DNA of 64,000 bases from a virus (IMGVR_UViG_3300032307_000723:53614-117613); one strand, 5' to 3'. Shown: positions 1,242 to 63,221, counted from the first letter of the stretch. The notes: generated by a model not told the origin, from the sequence alone. Numbers and translations are program-made.

Positions 1242-2276
1242 ATGTCAGATATTATTATAACAGAATCCCAACTCAAAACCATTCAAGAATTTTATGATGA
1301 AAATGGTCAACTATTAAATGAAGAATGGTGGAATACTATTGGAGACGTTGTTGGTATTTTTGACCCAACAGGATTAGTGGATTTAGTAAATGGTCTTGAT
1401 TATATAAGACAAGGGGAATATTTCTTTGGTTTCTTATCTATGATTGCGATAATTCCATATGCAGGAGATGTTATTGCAAAACCTCTTATGGGTGTGTCAA
1501 AAGGTAGTAAAGCAATGAGAGGTGTAAGTGAAGCCATGGGTATTATAAAAAAAGGTGGTAGTACTGCTGAGGCTAGTAGGTTATTAGCGAACGCAGGAAA
1601 ATCATCTCCATTGTTTGCTAAACTATTAAATACTTCAATAAGTTGGGGTGGAAAATTAAAAGAAATAGTTGATAGAATTCCTGGTGGAAGTTTAACAAGT
1701 GGTTTAAGAAAAACTATAATGGATTGGATAGACCTTTTTATAAGTGGCGCTAGACAAAGTAAGAGGACAGGTAAGATTACCGCTAATTTTGCTAAAAAAG
1801 TTAAGGCAGCTGACCCTGCAACCGCAACCGCTTTAATGAAACAATTACAAAGTCAATTAACAAAAAGTAGTAGAACTTTTAGGGATTTCAAACTTGCGGA
1901 CCCTGGTTTTATGAGTAAATATGTTTGGCCAGGTCTTTCATTTAGAAACAGAAATTTAATGGCGTTAATGAGAAGAACTAAGTTTTATGCGGGACTATTA
2001 GATTATGTTGGTGTTGCAAATTTTGTTGGGCCGGAAGAGTTATCACAACAAATGGGGGAAGAAAATTTACAGAAAAAAATTACTGAATATTCTCAAACAC
2101 CGGAAGGTCAAAAAAATTGGACAGAAGATATGTCTTCAGCAAACATGAGTCAAGAAAATCCAACACCACAAACAAACACAACAACATCAAGTGATGGTGA
2201 TATTAATGACGACCCATTTTCTAAAATGTTTAAAAAGATGTTAATAGGTCAATTAAACCCAATACCGGGAATGTAA
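1242..2276 (+). CDS. Leader (IIITESQL) protein with pre-toxin-like helical motif
   Basis: MSDIIITESQLK leader; DVVGIFDPTGLVDLVNGLDY...LSMIAIIPYAGD resembles pre-toxin motifs of polymorphic toxins. Confidence 0.6.
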   Translation: MSDIIITESQLKTIQEFYDENGQLLNEEWWNTIGDVVGIFDPTGLVDLVNGLDYIRQGEYFFGFLSMIAIIPYAGDVIAKPLMGVSKGSKAMRGVSEAMGIIKKGGSTAEASRLLANAGKSSPLFAKLLNTSISWGGKLKEIVDRIPGGSLTSGLRKTIMDWIDLFISGARQSKRTGKITANFAKKVKAADPATATALMKQLQSQLTKSSRTFRDFKLADPGFMSKYVWPGLSFRNRNLMALMRRTKFYAGLLDYVGVANFVGPEELSQQMGEENLQKKITEYSQTPEGQKNWTEDMSSANMSQENPTPQTNTTTSSDGDINDDPFSKMFKKMLIGQLNPIPGM

Positions 2277-2289
2277 TAAATAAAAAATT

Positions 2290-2661
2290 ATGAAAGAAGA
2301 AATAATATTAAAACTAGTACAAGTACAAGTCCAATTTAAATTTATGCATTGGCAAACAACTGGTGATGCCAAACACAGAGCGTATGGTGACATTTATGAT
2401 ACATTAGGGGATTTAATTGATAATTTTACAGAATCTATGATGGGAAAATATGGTAGACCTGAATTTGAATCAGAGTTCTCACTTATGTTCCAAGATTTAA
2501 AATCATTAAGTTTACAAAATTTTATGGATGGGATTACTGATTTTTTAGTTTCAATTACTGAAATGTTAGACCCAAAATACGACACCGACCTTTTAAATTT
2601 AAGAGATGAGATGTTGGCGGCAATTAATAAACTAAAATACTTACTTACATTAAAATCATAA
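2290..2661 (+). CDS. Ferritin/Dps-like four-helix protein (DUF5856-like)
   Basis: FMHWQT...HRAYGDIYD...D...E...G.YGR and DLLNLRDEML..INKLKYLLTL. Confidence 0.7.
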   Translation: MKEEIILKLVQVQVQFKFMHWQTTGDAKHRAYGDIYDTLGDLIDNFTESMMGKYGRPEFESEFSLMFQDLKSLSLQNFMDGITDFLVSITEMLDPKYDTDLLNLRDEMLAAINKLKYLLTLKS

Positions 2662-2662
2662 T

Positions 2663-3010
2663 ATGGCAAAGATTATAAGATTAACAGAATCTGATTTAAA
2701 TAGAATTGTTAAAAGAGTTATCGAAGAACAAATGAATCAACAAAAAGCGGTTGATGTTCAAATGGAAAAAATTAAACCTGAAATGGGTGGTAAATATTGT
2801 TTTGGTGACCCAAAACGACTTCAGTCAGCTTATGGTTACAATGTTAAATTACTTAAGGTTAAATCGGGTGATACATTAAGTGGTATTGCTTCAAAACACC
2901 CTGGAGTAACAAGTGTTGACGACCTTATTAGAATTAATAAGGGTTGTGCATTAACTAAAGGTTTGAAGAGTGGTGATGTACTTGCCATTGTGATTATGCC
3001 TGAAATGTAA
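2663..3010 (+). CDS. LysM-domain protein with IRLTESDL leader
   Basis: KVKSGDTLSGIASKH...DDLIRIN...GLKSGDVL matches the LysM pattern; N-terminus MAKIIRLTESDLNRIVKRVIEEQ. Confidence 0.8.
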   Translation: MAKIIRLTESDLNRIVKRVIEEQMNQQKAVDVQMEKIKPEMGGKYCFGDPKRLQSAYGYNVKLLKVKSGDTLSGIASKHPGVTSVDDLIRINKGCALTKGLKSGDVLAIVIMPEM

Positions 3011-3011
3011 T

Positions 3012-61294: not shown

Positions 61295-61321
61295 TAAAAA
61301 AACCCTCCGAAGAGGGTTTTT

Positions 61322-61963
61322 TTATTTTACGTTGAATTTAAAACCGGTTAATTTTTCAATAACCTCTAATTTAACTAAATTATTTTCAATCCCATCCGGT
61401 TTGGTTGTTGTGTTATCAAAAAGATATGAGTAATAGGTGTTACTTTTTTTGATATAAATTACTTTCCAACATTGTTTTGGAACGGCAACTCGACCTATCC
61501 TTTTAATTTCGCCAACATTACCACACCAAACTTTAATACTATCTTGTTCGGTTGCTAACTTACGAGTTAATGTTTCTAATGATTTCCAATCACCGGCATT
61601 TAATGAATGGTATTGTGCTGACATATTTGAAAAGTAAAAACATTCATCTTGTACTTGTGGGGTTTGACAAAGATTATCTGCGGCAGGCATCATATGTCCA
61701 CGGTCAGTACCACTACCTACATAATCTTTTAATAAGTCCGTTTCTTTTAGTAATTGAGGGTCCGGTTTAAAATTATCTTTTCGTTTAAGTGGTGTTTTAC
61801 AAGTAACCATAGACTTTGTTGTCCACCACTCAACTAAGACCGGATAATGTTTAGTTTTACTAAATACTGTTGTATAATTAGTATGTTTGATTCTAATAGT
61901 GTCTTGACTAAATAACACTGAAGACATTAGAATAAATCCTAAAGTTAAAATTATTTTTCTCAT
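61322..61963 (-). CDS. DNA/RNA non-specific endonuclease (NucA-like) with signal peptide
   Basis: DRGHMMPA, FYFSNMSAQ, LNAGDWKSLE; N-terminal MRKIILTLGFILMSSVLFSQ. Confidence 0.9.
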   Translation of the reverse strand: MRKIILTLGFILMSSVLFSQDTIRIKHTNYTTVFSKTKHYPVLVEWWTTKSMVTCKTPLKRKDNFKPDPQLLKETDLLKDYVGSGTDRGHMMPAADNLCQTPQVQDECFYFSNMSAQYHSLNAGDWKSLETLTRKLATEQDSIKVWCGNVGEIKRIGRVAVPKQCWKVIYIKKSNTYYSYLFDNTTTKPDGIENNLVKLEVIEKLTGFKFNVK

Positions 61964-61980
61964 ATCAATAAATACTTAAT

Positions 61981-62700
61981 ATGAATATTTCTCACAAATA
62001 TAAAACAATTTGGTGGGCACCTGAAAGGTGTGGTACTAAAGCAACCGCTCATATCTTAAGACACTTCCATTTTGAATATATTACAAAGTATTATGATTCA
62101 AAAACCCCAACTAGTTATCAATCTCATGAAATTTCACTTCCAAATGAAGAATATAGTGATTATCAAGTAATTTGTAGTATTAGAAATCCATATGACAGAA
62201 TGTTAGGACTTTTTTTAAATTTTGCAAGTCTTGGTGCATCATCTGTGTATGACAAATATAATCATCAACAAACAATGTATAATTTTTCAAAATTTATTGA
62301 CGAATTGTTTAAAGTAAGAGAAATAATATTAAAATTAGAAAAACCTGTTAGTAATAAAGAATTTGTTATTAATCATTATATTTCTAAATATAATTTTGAT
62401 ATTACTATACCTAAACATTATATCCGTATGGAAAATATTGTTGAAGATATGGGTAAAATTGATTTTATTAATGAGAGTCAATTGTGGTCTTCAGATTATA
62501 TTAAAAATTATTTAATAAAAAATGAACATATAACCACACACCCATATAAATTTAATTCAATTTACACATTTGAAACTGCAAAAAAAGTGTATGACTATTA
62601 TAAACAATTTTTCTTAGTATTAGGTTATGACCCATTTTCATTTACAACTGAAGAATTAACTAATGAACAAAAAATAGATTTTCTACATGGAATATTATAA
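61981..62700 (+). CDS. Sulfotransferase family 2-like protein
   Basis: APERCGTKA (PAPS 5'-loop-like), SIRNPYDR, IRMENI. Confidence 0.68.
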   Translation: MNISHKYKTIWWAPERCGTKATAHILRHFHFEYITKYYDSKTPTSYQSHEISLPNEEYSDYQVICSIRNPYDRMLGLFLNFASLGASSVYDKYNHQQTMYNFSKFIDELFKVREIILKLEKPVSNKEFVINHYISKYNFDITIPKHYIRMENIVEDMGKIDFINESQLWSSDYIKNYLIKNEHITTHPYKFNSIYTFETAKKVYDYYKQFFLVLGYDPFSFTTEELTNEQKIDFLHGIL

Positions 62701-62720
62701 TTATTGGTATATTTATAGAC

Positions 62721-63221
62721 ATGGGAACTAAAAGATTTACAATTACGGAATCAGAAATTGATTCAATCAAAAAACTTTACATGATTGAACAATCTGAAGA
62801 AAAAGAAGATAGAAAATTCTGCCACGGTGGAAATGTTAAAACATTAGATGATATTATGGGTGACGATGACTCAGAAGATTATATTGATGGTGTTACAATT
62901 AGAAGAAATGGTGTTAACGGATTAGTTGATATGCTTGAATTATTAAAAACTCTTAGATTACATCCAAAAGTTTCAGATGGTGGAGAACATTTAGCTTCTG
63001 AAATTATGAATCACCTAAAATCGTTCAAACCTTACAACTATTTTGATGAAACAAAAAAAGAGTGTAATAAAGCTATGGATAAAATCATTGAACTTTATAA
63101 AGAGAATGAACACGGTGAGGAGTTAGTTAAAGATATCGAAAAAGTTTATATGATGAATCACGTATCTCCAAGAGCAAAAGAATTCCTAAAACATGGTATT
63201 TCAATGATTAAAGGTCAATAA
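62721..63221 (+). CDS. FTITESE-leader protein
   Basis: MGTKRFTITESEIDSIKKLYMIEQ; TATTTAT upstream. Confidence 0.75.
   Translation: MGTKRFTITESEIDSIKKLYMIEQSEEKEDRKFCHGGNVKTLDDIMGDDDSEDYIDGVTIRRNGVNGLVDMLELLKTLRLHPKVSDGGEHLASEIMNHLKSFKPYNYFDETKKECNKAMDKIIELYKENEHGEELVKDIEKVYMMNHVSPRAKEFLKHGISMIKGQ

What the first reader, a model, noticed from the sequence alone, without database searches (positions are those of the whole stretch)
1242..63221. Window-wide system of N-terminal (I/L)-x-E leader peptides fused to unrelated cargo: candidate capsid-targeting signals
Seen in sequence: about 38 ORFs start with one of a few 10-25 aa leaders: MKYIITES(Q/K)(Y/L) type (18 ORFs), MKKVIRLTESDL..IV.RVI.E (5), MNLQENI.RI..MM (8), IRRILREE type (4), MNRSFSKIRHIQE (2) and MKHILNNLTEEE (1). 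Similarity stops after the leader. The downstream parts are unrelated and include LysM, a glucosaminidase-like domain, a P-loop kinase, an HExxH peptidase, a possible ART and a pre-toxin-like domain. Conservation is at protein level: within MKYIITES, Thr uses ACA, ACT, ACC and ACG, and Ser uses both TCA and AGY. Nearly all leaders contain or end in I/L-x-E (ITE, LTE, LQE, LNE, INE, LRE, IQE). Established: T4 internal proteins carry a ~10 aa capsid-targeting sequence, and prohead protease gp21 removes it after E in I/L-x-E; T4 Alt is packaged and processed this way. Inference: this phage uses several interchangeable leaders to load dozens of variable effectors into the head for injection.
Basis: partly seen in the sequence, partly recalled or inferred. 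Interest (0 to 1): 0.88.

Follow-up and report, generated by a model that had tools for sequence, protein, structure and literature searches.

The report
Shared clip-off leader tags, jumbo phage
About 39 otherwise unrelated genes in this piece of an uncultured T4-related giant phage start with a few short, interchangeable peptide tags that end in the motif where its head protease should cut. They most likely load varied proteins into the capsid, as phage T4 does with a handful, but neither loading nor cutting has been observed.

Summary
In the window, 38-39 ORFs begin with one of five or six short leaders. The leaders are always N-terminal, are conserved as amino acids rather than as DNA, and sit on mostly unrelated bodies.

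The window is the right part of a 117.6 kb fragment of a ~300 kb T4-like jumbo phage, probably of Bacteroidota. The same set of leaders recurs in over 100 environmental viral contigs and is at chance level in 596 Gb of cellular genomes.

Tests here support, but do not prove, the capsid-targeting reading:
- All 13 leader-bearing relatives that are at least 60% complete encode a T4 gp21-type prohead protease.
- Their capsid protein has L-I-N-E where T4 gp23 is cut.
- Conservation ends at [ILV]-x-Glu in classes B to E; in class A it ends two residues after I-T-E.
- Orthologous bodies carry different leaders.
- [IL]xE is specifically depleted in tagged bodies.
- Leader genes use the phage promoter shared with virion genes, and none has only the host-type promoter.
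- AlphaFold leaves the leaders detached from the fold.
- One cargo has an ADP-ribosyltransferase fold, as T4 Alt does.

No proteomics exists, because the phage is uncultured. This scan found the same system earlier in other genomes of the lineage, and I found no paper that describes it. Verdict: a new, much enlarged variant of the T4 capsid-targeting sequence, confidence about 0.6.

The parts
1242..2276 (+). Class A variant leader gene (MSDIIITE|S), 344 aa
   Evidence: TATTTAT motif at -22; no Pfam hit
2663..3010 (+). Class B leader gene (..IIRLTE|SDL..RVIEE), LysM body
   Evidence: LysM E 2.7e-8
11347..11634 (+). Class A variant (MSIKIKITE|EE), 95 aa
   Evidence: orthologue with the same leader in G001
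17795..18964 (-). Class A variant (MNKNYIVSE|SQL), 389 aa
   Evidence: TATTTAT at -11
26742..27326 (+). Class D leader gene (MKELIRKVLME|E), 194 aa
   Evidence: body homologues elsewhere carry A-type leaders; both promoter motifs lie upstream
27999..28289 (-). Class A gene, last of the 8-gene array
   Evidence: its body occurs as a fused C-terminal module joined at ILKE|D in L079 and L023
28291..28662 (-). Class A gene in the array
28664..29032 (-). Class A gene in the array (true ATG at 29032)
   Evidence: body related to 30458
29034..29423 (-). Class A gene (MKYIIKE), own TATTTAT at -12
29446..29817 (-). Class A gene in the array
29819..30142 (-). Class A gene (MRYIITE..LNE|)
30142..30456 (-). 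Class A gene (true ATG at 30456)
30458..30829 (-). Class A gene, first of the array, TATTTAT at -12
   Evidence: AF2 pLDDT 90: residues 1-6 are coil, the fold starts with helix 7-21
33456..34412 (+). Class C leader gene, 318 aa; first tagged gene of the C/D array
   Evidence: The array follows gene 32464-33453, which has TATTTAT at -12
34412..35071 (+). Class C leader + P-loop kinase-like body
35071..35490 (+). Class C gene (GTG start, MKLYEDI..GVITE|)
35494..35856 (+). Class C gene
35853..36290 (+). Class C gene (paralogue family)
36293..36595 (+). Class D gene (MNLKQAIRRILRE|E)
36592..37005 (+). Class D leader + ADP-ribosyltransferase-fold (KptA/Tpt1-like) body
   Evidence: AF2: leader helix 3-13 has pLDDT below 50 and is detached. 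Foldseek hits KptA/Tpt1, E 2.4e-5. Homologues carry an A leader
37007..37441 (+). Class C gene (paralogue family)
37443..37898 (+). Class C gene (paralogue family)
37977..38324 (-). Class A gene (true ATG at 38324), TATTTAT at -12
40476..40766 (+). Class A variant (MEYSITE|N)
42507..42869 (+). Class E gene (MNRSFSKIRHIQE|S..MLRE|)
42869..43216 (+). Class E gene
   Evidence: body homologues carry B and A leaders
44677..45105 (+). Class A variant (MEYIIDE|S)
45146..45514 (+). Class B gene
45519..45908 (+). Class B gene
   Evidence: leader-only matches on about 80 unrelated metagenome proteins
45915..46409 (+). Class A variant (MKIKITE|SQYKLLKE|)
46921..48228 (+). Class C gene, 435 aa
49170..49673 (+). 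Class F gene (MKHILNNLTE|EEKNAIREQH)
   Evidence: Related '(I/L)TEEEK..IL.QH' and 'EEK.RIL.LHES' leaders occur in G001, the latter next to the capsid gene
50630..50932 (+). Class A gene
53896..54261 (+). Class D gene (MELNKIIKKVLRE|S)
   Evidence: a homologue has an A-like leader
55323..56180 (+). Class B gene (MERIHTLTE|SDL..TVLE|N), 285 aa
   Evidence: homologue L040 has an A leader on the same body
57694..58725 (+). Class A gene, 343 aa, HEFNH motif at residue 160
58727..58993 (+). Weak A-like start (MDVIISE|KQ); membership uncertain
   Evidence: only
59529..60254 (+). Class B variant (MGKKYTVRLTE|QDL) + glucosaminidase-like body
   Evidence: E 4.6e-4, below cut-off
62721..63221 (+). Class B variant (MGTKRFTITE|SEI)
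   Evidence: orthologue in G001

Best explanation
The leaders are capsid-targeting propeptides of the T4 type, used here on a much larger scale.

Proposed mechanism:
1. Each tagged protein is made from the phage's own (probably late) promoters.
2. Its 7-25 residue leader takes it into the assembling prohead core.
3. The phage's gp21-family prohead protease removes the leader after the Glu of an [I/L/V]-x-E motif.
4. The trimmed protein stays in the head and enters the host with the DNA.

The five or six leader classes do the same job and are exchanged between bodies by recombination, so new cargo can be enrolled easily. Cargo seen here or in relatives includes cell-wall hydrolases, an ADP-ribosyltransferase-fold enzyme, a P-loop kinase and many small acidic proteins of unknown fold.

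Shown: the leaders, their modularity, their restriction to this phage lineage, the protease gene, and the motif statistics. Inferred: binding to the core, cleavage, packaging, injection and late timing.
For: 1. Lineage. A syntenic 309 kb relative (G001, 75-85% nt identity) has a T4-order head module: terminase, portal, two small genes, protease, scaffold-like gene, gp23-like capsid gene. Peptidase_S77 (T4 gp21 family) is above the cut-off in 13 of 13 leader-bearing IMG/VR records that are at least 60% complete.

2. Protease specificity. At the column aligned with T4 gp23's cut site (FLTE|AEIGG), five jumbo capsid proteins have (Y/H/F)-L-I-N-E|(A/S). T4 sites seen here or cited: gp24 ..LLRE|S; Alt ITE-6 and LTE-619 (PMC5694885); ipII and ipIII MKTYQEFIAE.

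3. Where conservation ends. It ends right after [ILV]-x-E in four classes: B at E22, D at E13/14, C at about E19, E at E25. Class A is a 9-residue block with I-T-E at 5-7.

4. Modularity. Orthologous bodies carry different leaders joined at or just after [IL]xE: 36592 D/A, 42869 E/B/A, 26742 D/A, 37007 C/D, 55323 B/A. One family that lies near the capsid gene has four different leaders, all ending [ILF]-x-E|(A/T).

5. Motif avoidance. [IL]xE is depleted in tagged bodies (O/E 0.90; by cluster 0.93, CI 0.82-1.04). Non-tagged proteins give 1.10 (CI 1.04-1.16). [IL]x[D/Q/K] in the same tagged bodies give 1.2-1.4.

6. Promoters. Leader genes have the TATTTAT motif that also precedes the protease, scaffold and giant tail or fibre genes. 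Counts: 16 with TATTTAT only, 1 with both motifs, 0 with only the host-type TAnnTTTG. Non-leader genes: 18 TATTTAT, 17 host-type (my one-sided Fisher p is about 3e-4).

7. Structure. AF2 leaves MKYIIT as coil outside a confident fold. It leaves the D leader as a detached low-confidence helix.

8. Cargo. An ART fold, as in T4 Alt. In relatives: LysM, lysozyme, SLT, glucosaminidase, TseH-like and ART-PolyVal domains.

9. Distribution. More than 118 viral loci hold leader A and also hold B, C, D and E. In 596 Gb of cellular genomes there are 20 single hits, about what my uniform-composition estimate (roughly 19) gives by chance, and most are not ORF starts.
Against: - There is no direct evidence of packaging or cleavage, and no cultured relative or virion proteome. 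The B leader has no match in 50,697 GenBank phage records.
- Restriction to one lineage that also has the protease could be shared ancestry, not functional linkage.
- 'Late' timing rests only on a shared promoter motif.
- The [IL]xE depletion is modest: at cluster level the confidence intervals only just separate.
- In class A, S8 and Q/K/R9 beyond the proposed cut are also conserved. The cut would sit at the cap of a helix that belongs to the fold.
- Many bodies are strongly acidic (net -10 to -21), unlike T4's basic DNA-associated internal proteins.
- Most tagged genes lie far from the head module, among genes with host-type promoters.
- B, C and D leaders are amphipathic, partly basic helices that could bind another partner.
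Confidence: 0.6

Rival explanations
1. The leaders are propeptides that are cut off, but only for timing or activation. They would keep harmful enzymes (wall hydrolases, ART, kinase) inactive until a protease acts late in infection, without loading them into the capsid.
For: Leaders end in [IL]xE, and bodies avoid that motif. Several cargoes are peptidoglycan hydrolases that could serve lysis rather than entry.
Against: In T4 the gp21 protease is known to act inside the assembled prohead (established knowledge; PMC5694885). AF2 shows the leaders detached from the fold, not occluding it. Most cargoes are small proteins with no recognisable enzyme domain.
Confidence: 0.1
2. The leaders are binding tags for another common partner, for example the DnaK/DnaJ-type chaperones that this phage lineage encodes. 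The hydrophobic-basic N-termini would recruit a chaperone or a host factor.
For: Leaders have hydrophobic cores flanked by K/R (KYIIT, KVIRLT, IRRILR). The contig has an ORF (contig 33816-34742) whose N-terminus I read as a DnaJ J-domain; this is my reading of the sequence, not a search result. The probably related 'moraphage' lineage is noted for DnaJ and DnaK (PMC12619734).
Against: This does not explain the invariant Glu, the ending of the conserved block at or near [ILV]-x-E, the specific depletion of [IL]xE but not [IL]x[DQK] in bodies, or the match to the capsid protein's own cut site. Class C (MNLQENI.RI..MMG) is a poor chaperone-type motif.
Confidence: 0.1
3. The shared N-termini are an ordinary structural element, such as a first strand or helix or an oligomerisation helix, of fast-diverging paralogue families. 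On this view they are not an address.
For: Some bodies are true paralogues. In class A a weak amphipathic pattern continues to residue 18, and helix 7-21 is part of the fold.
Against: The same body occurs with leaders of different predicted structure: helix-only C/D and strand-plus-helix A/B. Bodies include unrelated known folds (LysM, P-loop, ART, lysozyme). AF2 places the leaders outside the fold.
Confidence: 0.07
4. The conserved gene starts work at DNA or RNA level. They could be a translation-initiation or leaderless-mRNA element, or homology arms for cassette exchange, with the peptide as a by-product.
For: Many leader genes have the promoter motif only 4-5 nt before the ATG, which suggests leaderless mRNAs. 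Copy number changes fast between relatives.
Against: Synonymous sites vary about as freely as the background, and Ser uses both codon families. Leader genes inside arrays have no promoter of their own. Non-leader genes with the same promoter spacing have unrelated N-termini.
Confidence: 0.04

Closest known systems
Phage T4 capsid targeting sequence (CTS) of internal proteins IPI, IPII and IPIII and the short propeptides of Alt and gp24, removed by prohead protease gp21
   Same: A short N-terminal peptide (6-20 aa) ending in I/L-x-E sits on otherwise unrelated, fast-evolving small proteins. A gp21-family protease gene is present, and head gene order is T4-like. One cargo has an ART fold, as Alt does; Alt's own tag ends ITE, as in MKYIITE. 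Basis: PMC3012670 and PMC5694885.
   Different: At least five leader classes instead of essentially one. There are 38-39 tagged genes in 64 kb against a handful in T4. No sequence similarity to MKTYQEFIAE. Some leaders hold two cut motifs. Many cargoes are acidic. Tagged genes are scattered through a long accessory arm. Nothing has been shown experimentally.
Propeptide-bearing inner-head and ejection proteins of giant phages phiKZ and SPN3US (S80 protease, A/S/G-x-E sites)
   Same: Jumbo phages with dozens of head proteins processed after Glu by a gp21-related protease. Conserved N-termini on diverged paralogues have been noted (PMC5694885).
   Different: Those propeptides are mostly over 100 residues long, and the motif has a small residue at P3. 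Here the tags are 7-25 residues with an aliphatic P3, and the protease matches the T4 S77 family directly.
Encapsulin cargo-loading peptides
   Same: Short transferable peptides that address unrelated cargo to the inside of an HK97-fold shell.
   Different: They are usually C-terminal, are not cleaved, bind the shell protein itself, and are not part of a virus. This comparison rests on my own knowledge only and was not tested here.
Polyvalent proteins of phages and conjugative elements (Iyer et al. 2017, PMC5512222)
   Same: Varied conflict enzymes (ART-PolyVal, peptidoglycan hydrolases) thought to travel with the DNA into the host. One tagged relative hits ART-PolyVal. Fused multi-module forms joined at [IL]xE exist in relatives.
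   Different: Here the cargo is mostly single small proteins, each with its own tag, rather than giant multidomain chains.

Membership tests
T4-type capsid targeting sequence / gp21-processed propeptide | The phage encodes a gp21-family (Peptidase_S77) prohead protease | tested here: met
   The gene is not on this 117.6 kb fragment. It is present above the Pfam cut-off in the syntenic relative G001 and in 13 of 13 leader-bearing records that are at least 60% complete.
T4-type capsid targeting sequence / gp21-processed propeptide | A short N-terminal peptide ending in (I/L)-x-E, the protease's cut motif | tested here: met
   All 38 clear leader ORFs have [ILVM]-x-E within 13 residues. The conserved block ends at that motif in classes B-E. 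The lineage's capsid protein has L-I-N-E at the T4-homologous cut site.
T4-type capsid targeting sequence / gp21-processed propeptide | The tag is transferable: the same tag on unrelated proteins, and the same protein with different tags | tested here: met
   Bodies are unrelated. There are five leader swaps on orthologous bodies, plus the family near the capsid gene.
T4-type capsid targeting sequence / gp21-processed propeptide | The tag is cleaved by the prohead protease | not testable with these tools
   Only indirect support: specific depletion of [IL]xE in tagged bodies.
T4-type capsid targeting sequence / gp21-processed propeptide | The tag directs the protein into the prohead, and the mature protein is in the virion | not testable with these tools
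   The phage is uncultured and no proteome exists.
T4-type capsid targeting sequence / gp21-processed propeptide | Sequence similarity to the T4 CTS (MKTYQEFIAE) | tested here: not met
   The T4 CTS was verified in T4 ipII and ipIII. None of the classes resembles it beyond 'MK' and the terminal I/L-x-E. The D leader resembles the T4 gp24 propeptide end (..LLRE|S). The leaders are therefore analogous or very distant, not a sequence-family member.
ADP-ribosyltransferase fold (cargo of 36592-37005) | ART / KptA-Tpt1 core fold | tested here: met
   AF2 model pLDDT 75. Foldseek top hits are KptA/Tpt1 (E 2.4e-5, probability 1.0, TM about 0.5), followed by ART toxins. Catalytic residues were not examined, and Pfam finds nothing.

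The most novel reading that the evidence does not exclude
The several leader classes are not redundant. They form an address code: each class docks at a different site or partner in the prohead core. The class would then set copy number, position or order of ejection for a fast-changing arsenal of dozens of injected anti-defence and takeover proteins. Cargo would be enrolled, re-addressed or chained into polyproteins by recombination at the [I/L]-x-E joints.
Probability: 0.15. Interest if true: 0.88.

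Novelty: new variant of a known kind. Interest (0 to 1): 0.7.

Why it matters
If the tags do load cargo, this lineage of ~300 kb phages of aquatic Bacteroidota delivers dozens of variable proteins with its DNA. 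That is far more than the T4 paradigm.

The tag would then give a simple sequence rule for listing injected phage proteins, which are candidate anti-defence and host-takeover factors, straight from metagenomes. Most of the cargo has no known fold or family, so it would be a rich source of new functions.

The short, interchangeable tags with a defined cut site could also serve as tools for packaging foreign proteins into capsids, as the T4 CTS already does.

The idea is directly testable with peptides, recombinant protease and viral-fraction proteomics.

Tried and rejected
- **Head genes on this contig.** PHROGs and Pfam on 30 large ORFs found replication genes, a sigma factor and fibres, but no capsid, portal, protease or terminase gene. 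The contig is a fragment, so the head genes were read in the relative G001.
- **Cultured relatives.** Megablast of 12 kb of the window against GenBank phages found nothing. tblastn with a 23-residue B leader also found nothing. The closest cultured capsid proteins are only 28-43% identical (Rhodothermus RM378, Flavobacterium 'immuto', Microcystis Mel-JY01), so no virion proteome could be borrowed.
- **Literature.** A search for the leader strings found no paper. The 'moraphage' paper, probably on this lineage, does not mention leaders.
- **Fold of the class A small protein.** Foldseek against the PDB found no match at E 0.001 or below. I had guessed a likeness to T4 IPI* because both have terminal helices flanking sheets. 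IPI* was not among the top 50 rows shown.
- **Pre-toxin domain and HExxH peptidase family.** No profile hit; only a bare HEFNH motif.
- **DNA-level explanation.** Rejected on codon evidence.

Full report
**What the window is.** The window is bases 53614-117613 of a single 117.6 kb virus contig. GC is about 31%.

PHROGs and Pfam on its large ORFs find a primase, an exonuclease, an SbcC-like protein, a sigma-70-family factor, glycosyltransferases and collagen-like fibres. They find no capsid, portal, protease or terminase gene.

A complete 309 kb IMG/VR record (G001) is syntenic with the whole contig at 75-85% nucleotide identity. The contig is therefore roughly the accessory third of a ~300 kb jumbo phage.

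G001's capsid protein is gp23-like, with 2569 T4-type records matched by tblastn. The nearest cultured phages are only 28-43% identical.

Host-type promoters of the Bacteroidota form (TTTG...TAnnTTTG) are present. The features reported for the recently named freshwater 'moraphages' also fit: T4-like core genes, a sigma factor, DnaJ, up to 307 kb, Bacteroidota hosts (PMC12619734). I could not compare sequences with that paper.

**Checking the observation.** ORF and motif scans confirm 38 clear leader ORFs and one weak one in the window.
- Class A (MKYIITES and variants): 18.
- Class B (..IRLTESDL..RVI.E): 6.
- Class C (MNLQENI.RI..MMG): 8.
- Class D (..I[RK][RK][IV]L[RM]E): 4.
- Class E (MNRSFSKIRHIQE): 2.
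- Class F (MKHILNNLTEEE): 1.

The leaders are always at the true N-terminus, and none occurs in the other 53.6 kb of the contig.

The constraint is on the peptide. In 121 non-redundant class A genes from viral contigs, synonymous codons appear in roughly background proportions, and Ser uses both TCN and AGY. Third-position identity is 0.51, against 0.93 at first and second positions.

Bodies trimmed of 25 residues are mostly unrelated. Only four C-class paralogues and two A-class pairs match.

For the cargo claims:
- LysM and a P-loop kinase-like domain are confirmed.
- The glucosaminidase hit is weak.
- HExxH is only a motif.
- No pre-toxin domain was found.

**Distribution.** Many loci had 2-5 copies.

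Of 154 matches, 136 sit at the listed ORF start and the rest within 40 codons of it. The median protein is 115 aa.

These loci were fetched only for leader A, yet they also hold the other classes, nearly all at N-termini (all but 6 of the loose D-pattern matches have an upstream Met within 12 residues):

| Leader | Instances |
|---|---|
| B | 87 |
| D | 43 |
| C | 28 |
| E | 10 |

The classes therefore travel together.

CheckV completeness of the contigs scales with length as if all were pieces of ~300 kb genomes.

In 596 Gb of bacterial and archaeal genomes the same pattern gives 20 single hits. That is about what my uniform-composition estimate gives by chance. Nearly all are short or out-of-frame ORFs with no other leader nearby.

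Copy number changes fast. Strict MKYIITE starts number 11 in this window, 9 in G001, and 4, 3, 2 and 2 in four other complete relatives.

**Does the phage have the machinery?** Peptidase_S77, the T4 gp21 family, is found above the Pfam cut-off in all 13 leader-bearing records that are at least 60% complete. It rings in none of 14 control genomes.

In G001 and four other relatives the head genes run in T4 order: portal, two small genes, protease, a small gene, an acidic scaffold-like gene, then the capsid gene. In G001 the terminase gene lies directly upstream of the portal; in some relatives one or two other genes lie between or around them.

I aligned the capsid proteins with T4 gp23, read from the T4 record. 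The T4 cut site ..F-L-T-E|A-E-I-G-G falls on a conserved (Y/H/F)-L-I-N-E|(A/S) in all five jumbo phages. An aliphatic-x-Glu specificity is therefore very likely kept.

T4's own short propeptides follow the same rule:
- gp24 MAKINELLRE|S.
- Alt, cut at ITE-6 and LTE-619 (PMC5694885).
- ipII and ipIII, which both start MKTYQEFIAE.

The T4 CTS is known to load otherwise unrelated internal proteins into the scaffolding core (PMC3012670).

**Tests of the tag idea.**

*Where conservation ends.* Per-position information in non-redundant sets falls sharply right after an [ILV]-x-E in four classes:
- B: after V/I-I-x-E at residue 22.
- D: after L-R-E at residue 13.
- C: after I/V-x-E at about residue 19.
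- E: after residue 25.

Class A is a 9-residue block with I-T-E at 5-7. A subclass has a second L-x-E at 13-15.

*Swapping.* Body-level homologues of window proteins carry other leader classes:
- 36592: D here, A in L079 and G001.
- 42869: E here, B in L030, A in L007.
- 26742: D or A.
- The 37007 family: C or D.
- 55323: B here, A in L040.

One family encoded near the capsid gene starts with four different leaders in five phages. Each ends [ILF]-x-E just before the conserved A(T/S)..S.G body start.

In L079 and L023 the 36592-type body is fused to the 27999-type body through ..I-L-K-E|D... That is a polyprotein-like joint at the same motif.

*Motif avoidance.* Observed over expected counts:

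| Motif and protein set | O/E |
|---|---|
| [IL]xE, 328 tagged bodies | 0.90 |
| [IL]xE, non-tagged proteins of 260 aa or fewer from the same DNA | 1.11 |
| [IL]xD, [IL]xQ, [IL]xK, tagged bodies | 1.20-1.29 |
| [IL]xE, tagged bodies, one value per homology cluster | 0.93 (CI 0.82-1.04) |
| [IL]xE, non-tagged, one value per cluster | 1.10 (CI 1.04-1.16) |

[IL]xE has the lowest tagged-to-untagged ratio of the 12 motifs tried. The signal is modest but specific. It is what exposure to an [IL]xE-cutting protease predicts.

*Expression class.* Upstream regions in G001 are enriched for two motifs.
- TATTTAT is 19-fold enriched and present in 63 of 201 upstream regions.
- The other is the host-type TAnnTTTG.

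TATTTAT precedes the protease, the scaffold-like gene, the gene next to the portal and the giant tail or fibre genes. It also precedes leader genes.

Promoter motifs upstream of genes across the whole 117.6 kb contig (all leader genes lie in the window):

| Gene set | TATTTAT | Both | Host-type only | Neither |
|---|---|---|---|---|
| Leader genes | 16 | 1 | 0 | 21 (inside arrays headed by a TATTTAT gene) |
| Non-leader genes | 18 | 4 | 17 | 103 |

My one-sided Fisher p is about 3e-4. The contig encodes its own sigma-70-family factor. Late timing is therefore plausible, but it is inferred.

*Structure.*
- For class A protein 30458 (AF2 pLDDT 90), residues 1-6 are coil with low confidence, and the fold starts with helix 7-21.
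- For class D protein 36592, the leader is an isolated helix with pLDDT below 50, followed by a linker.
- The body of 36592 has an ADP-ribosyltransferase-type fold, KptA/Tpt1-like, Foldseek E 2.4e-5. That parallels T4 Alt.

*Cargo in relatives.* Each of these domains occurs once among 79 body families, most of which have no Pfam hit: LysM, phage lysozyme, SLT, glucosaminidase, ART-PolyVal, alpha/beta hydrolase and several DUFs. A TseH-like wall hydrolase carrying yet another leader lies three genes downstream of the capsid gene in G001.

**What remains open.** Nothing shows cleavage, packaging or injection.
- The link to the protease could be shared ancestry within one lineage.
- Class A keeps two conserved residues beyond the proposed cut, at the cap of a helix that belongs to the fold.
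- Many bodies are very acidic, unlike T4's basic internal proteins.
- The B, C and D leaders are amphipathic helices that could bind something else, for example the lineage's DnaJ/DnaK-type chaperones.

**Comparison and novelty.** The closest known system is the T4 CTS with gp21 processing. Three defining features were tested and met: the protease family, a short N-terminal tag ending in I/L-x-E, and transferability. Two could not be tested: cleavage and packaging. Sequence similarity to the T4 CTS is absent.

The differences from T4 are scale (about 39 tagged genes in 64 kb), several co-existing and interchangeable leader classes, leaders with two cut motifs, and fused multi-cargo forms.

I found no paper that describes this. 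Earlier follow-ups in this scan reached the same reading on other genomes of the lineage. Those notes are not independent evidence, but the finding is not unique to this window.

I rate it a new variant of a known kind, with confidence about 0.6 in the capsid-loading mechanism and interest 0.7.

Noticed in passing
window-wide; e.g. 30830-30845, 38325-38340, 46905-46920, 57680-57693; host-type examples upstream of 7365, 27935, 43339: There are two promoter-like motif classes. TATTTAT(A) often ends only 4-5 nt before the ATG, or else lies about 21-25 nt upstream. The Bacteroidota-type TTTG-N19-TAnnTTTG also sometimes ends right at the ATG. Both spacings suggest many leaderless or near-leaderless mRNAs.
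   Followed up: partly
contig 25395-26192 (outside the window; L120:5395-6192): The phage encodes a sigma-70-family factor (regions 1.2, 2 and 4; Pfam E 4e-17). It is a candidate reader of the TATTTAT promoters.
   Followed up: partly
L079:5774-6649 and L023:1739-2608 (relatives): Homologues of window gene 36592 (ART fold) carry an extra middle segment. They are then fused, through ..ILKE|DKYRLLRRE.., to the body of window gene 27999. This is a polyprotein-like chain with an [IL]xE joint.
   Followed up: partly
G001 192136-196188 and 227215-227520; window 49170-49673: Further leader types occur: 'EEK.RIL.LHES..K..YL.EQ' and '..KYL.GYK.G.V.SEQ'. Four genes with them lie just downstream of the capsid gene in the relative, and one of these has a TseH-like wall-hydrolase domain. 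The window's class F leader looks related.
   Followed up: partly
window 5513-8058: A gene-poor stretch of about 1.8 kb is followed by an ORF that I read by eye as SmpB-like (7621-8058, MNKSINIINKKARFEYEF..). I ran no family search on it. Other first-stage notes describe tRNA-like and large structured RNAs in this stretch. I did not examine them.
   Followed up: no
window 29034-29110: The class A gene 29034-29423 ends in a tandem GATGAA repeat (Asp/Glu-rich tail) that runs up to the start of the next array gene. The ORF lister's TTG-extended form of that next gene (28664-29110) reads the same repeat as MKMKMK.
   Followed up: no
contig 28-14045 and 41124-47504 (outside the window): Very large proteins with Thr/Pro-rich repeats, and three collagen-like (G-X-Y) fibre genes. 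These are probably tail fibres. None has a leader.
   Followed up: no
contig 33816-34742 (outside the window): An ORF whose N-terminus I read by eye as a DnaJ J-domain (no family search run). It fits the 'moraphage' lineage description (PMC12619734) and is the basis of the chaperone-tag rival.
   Followed up: no
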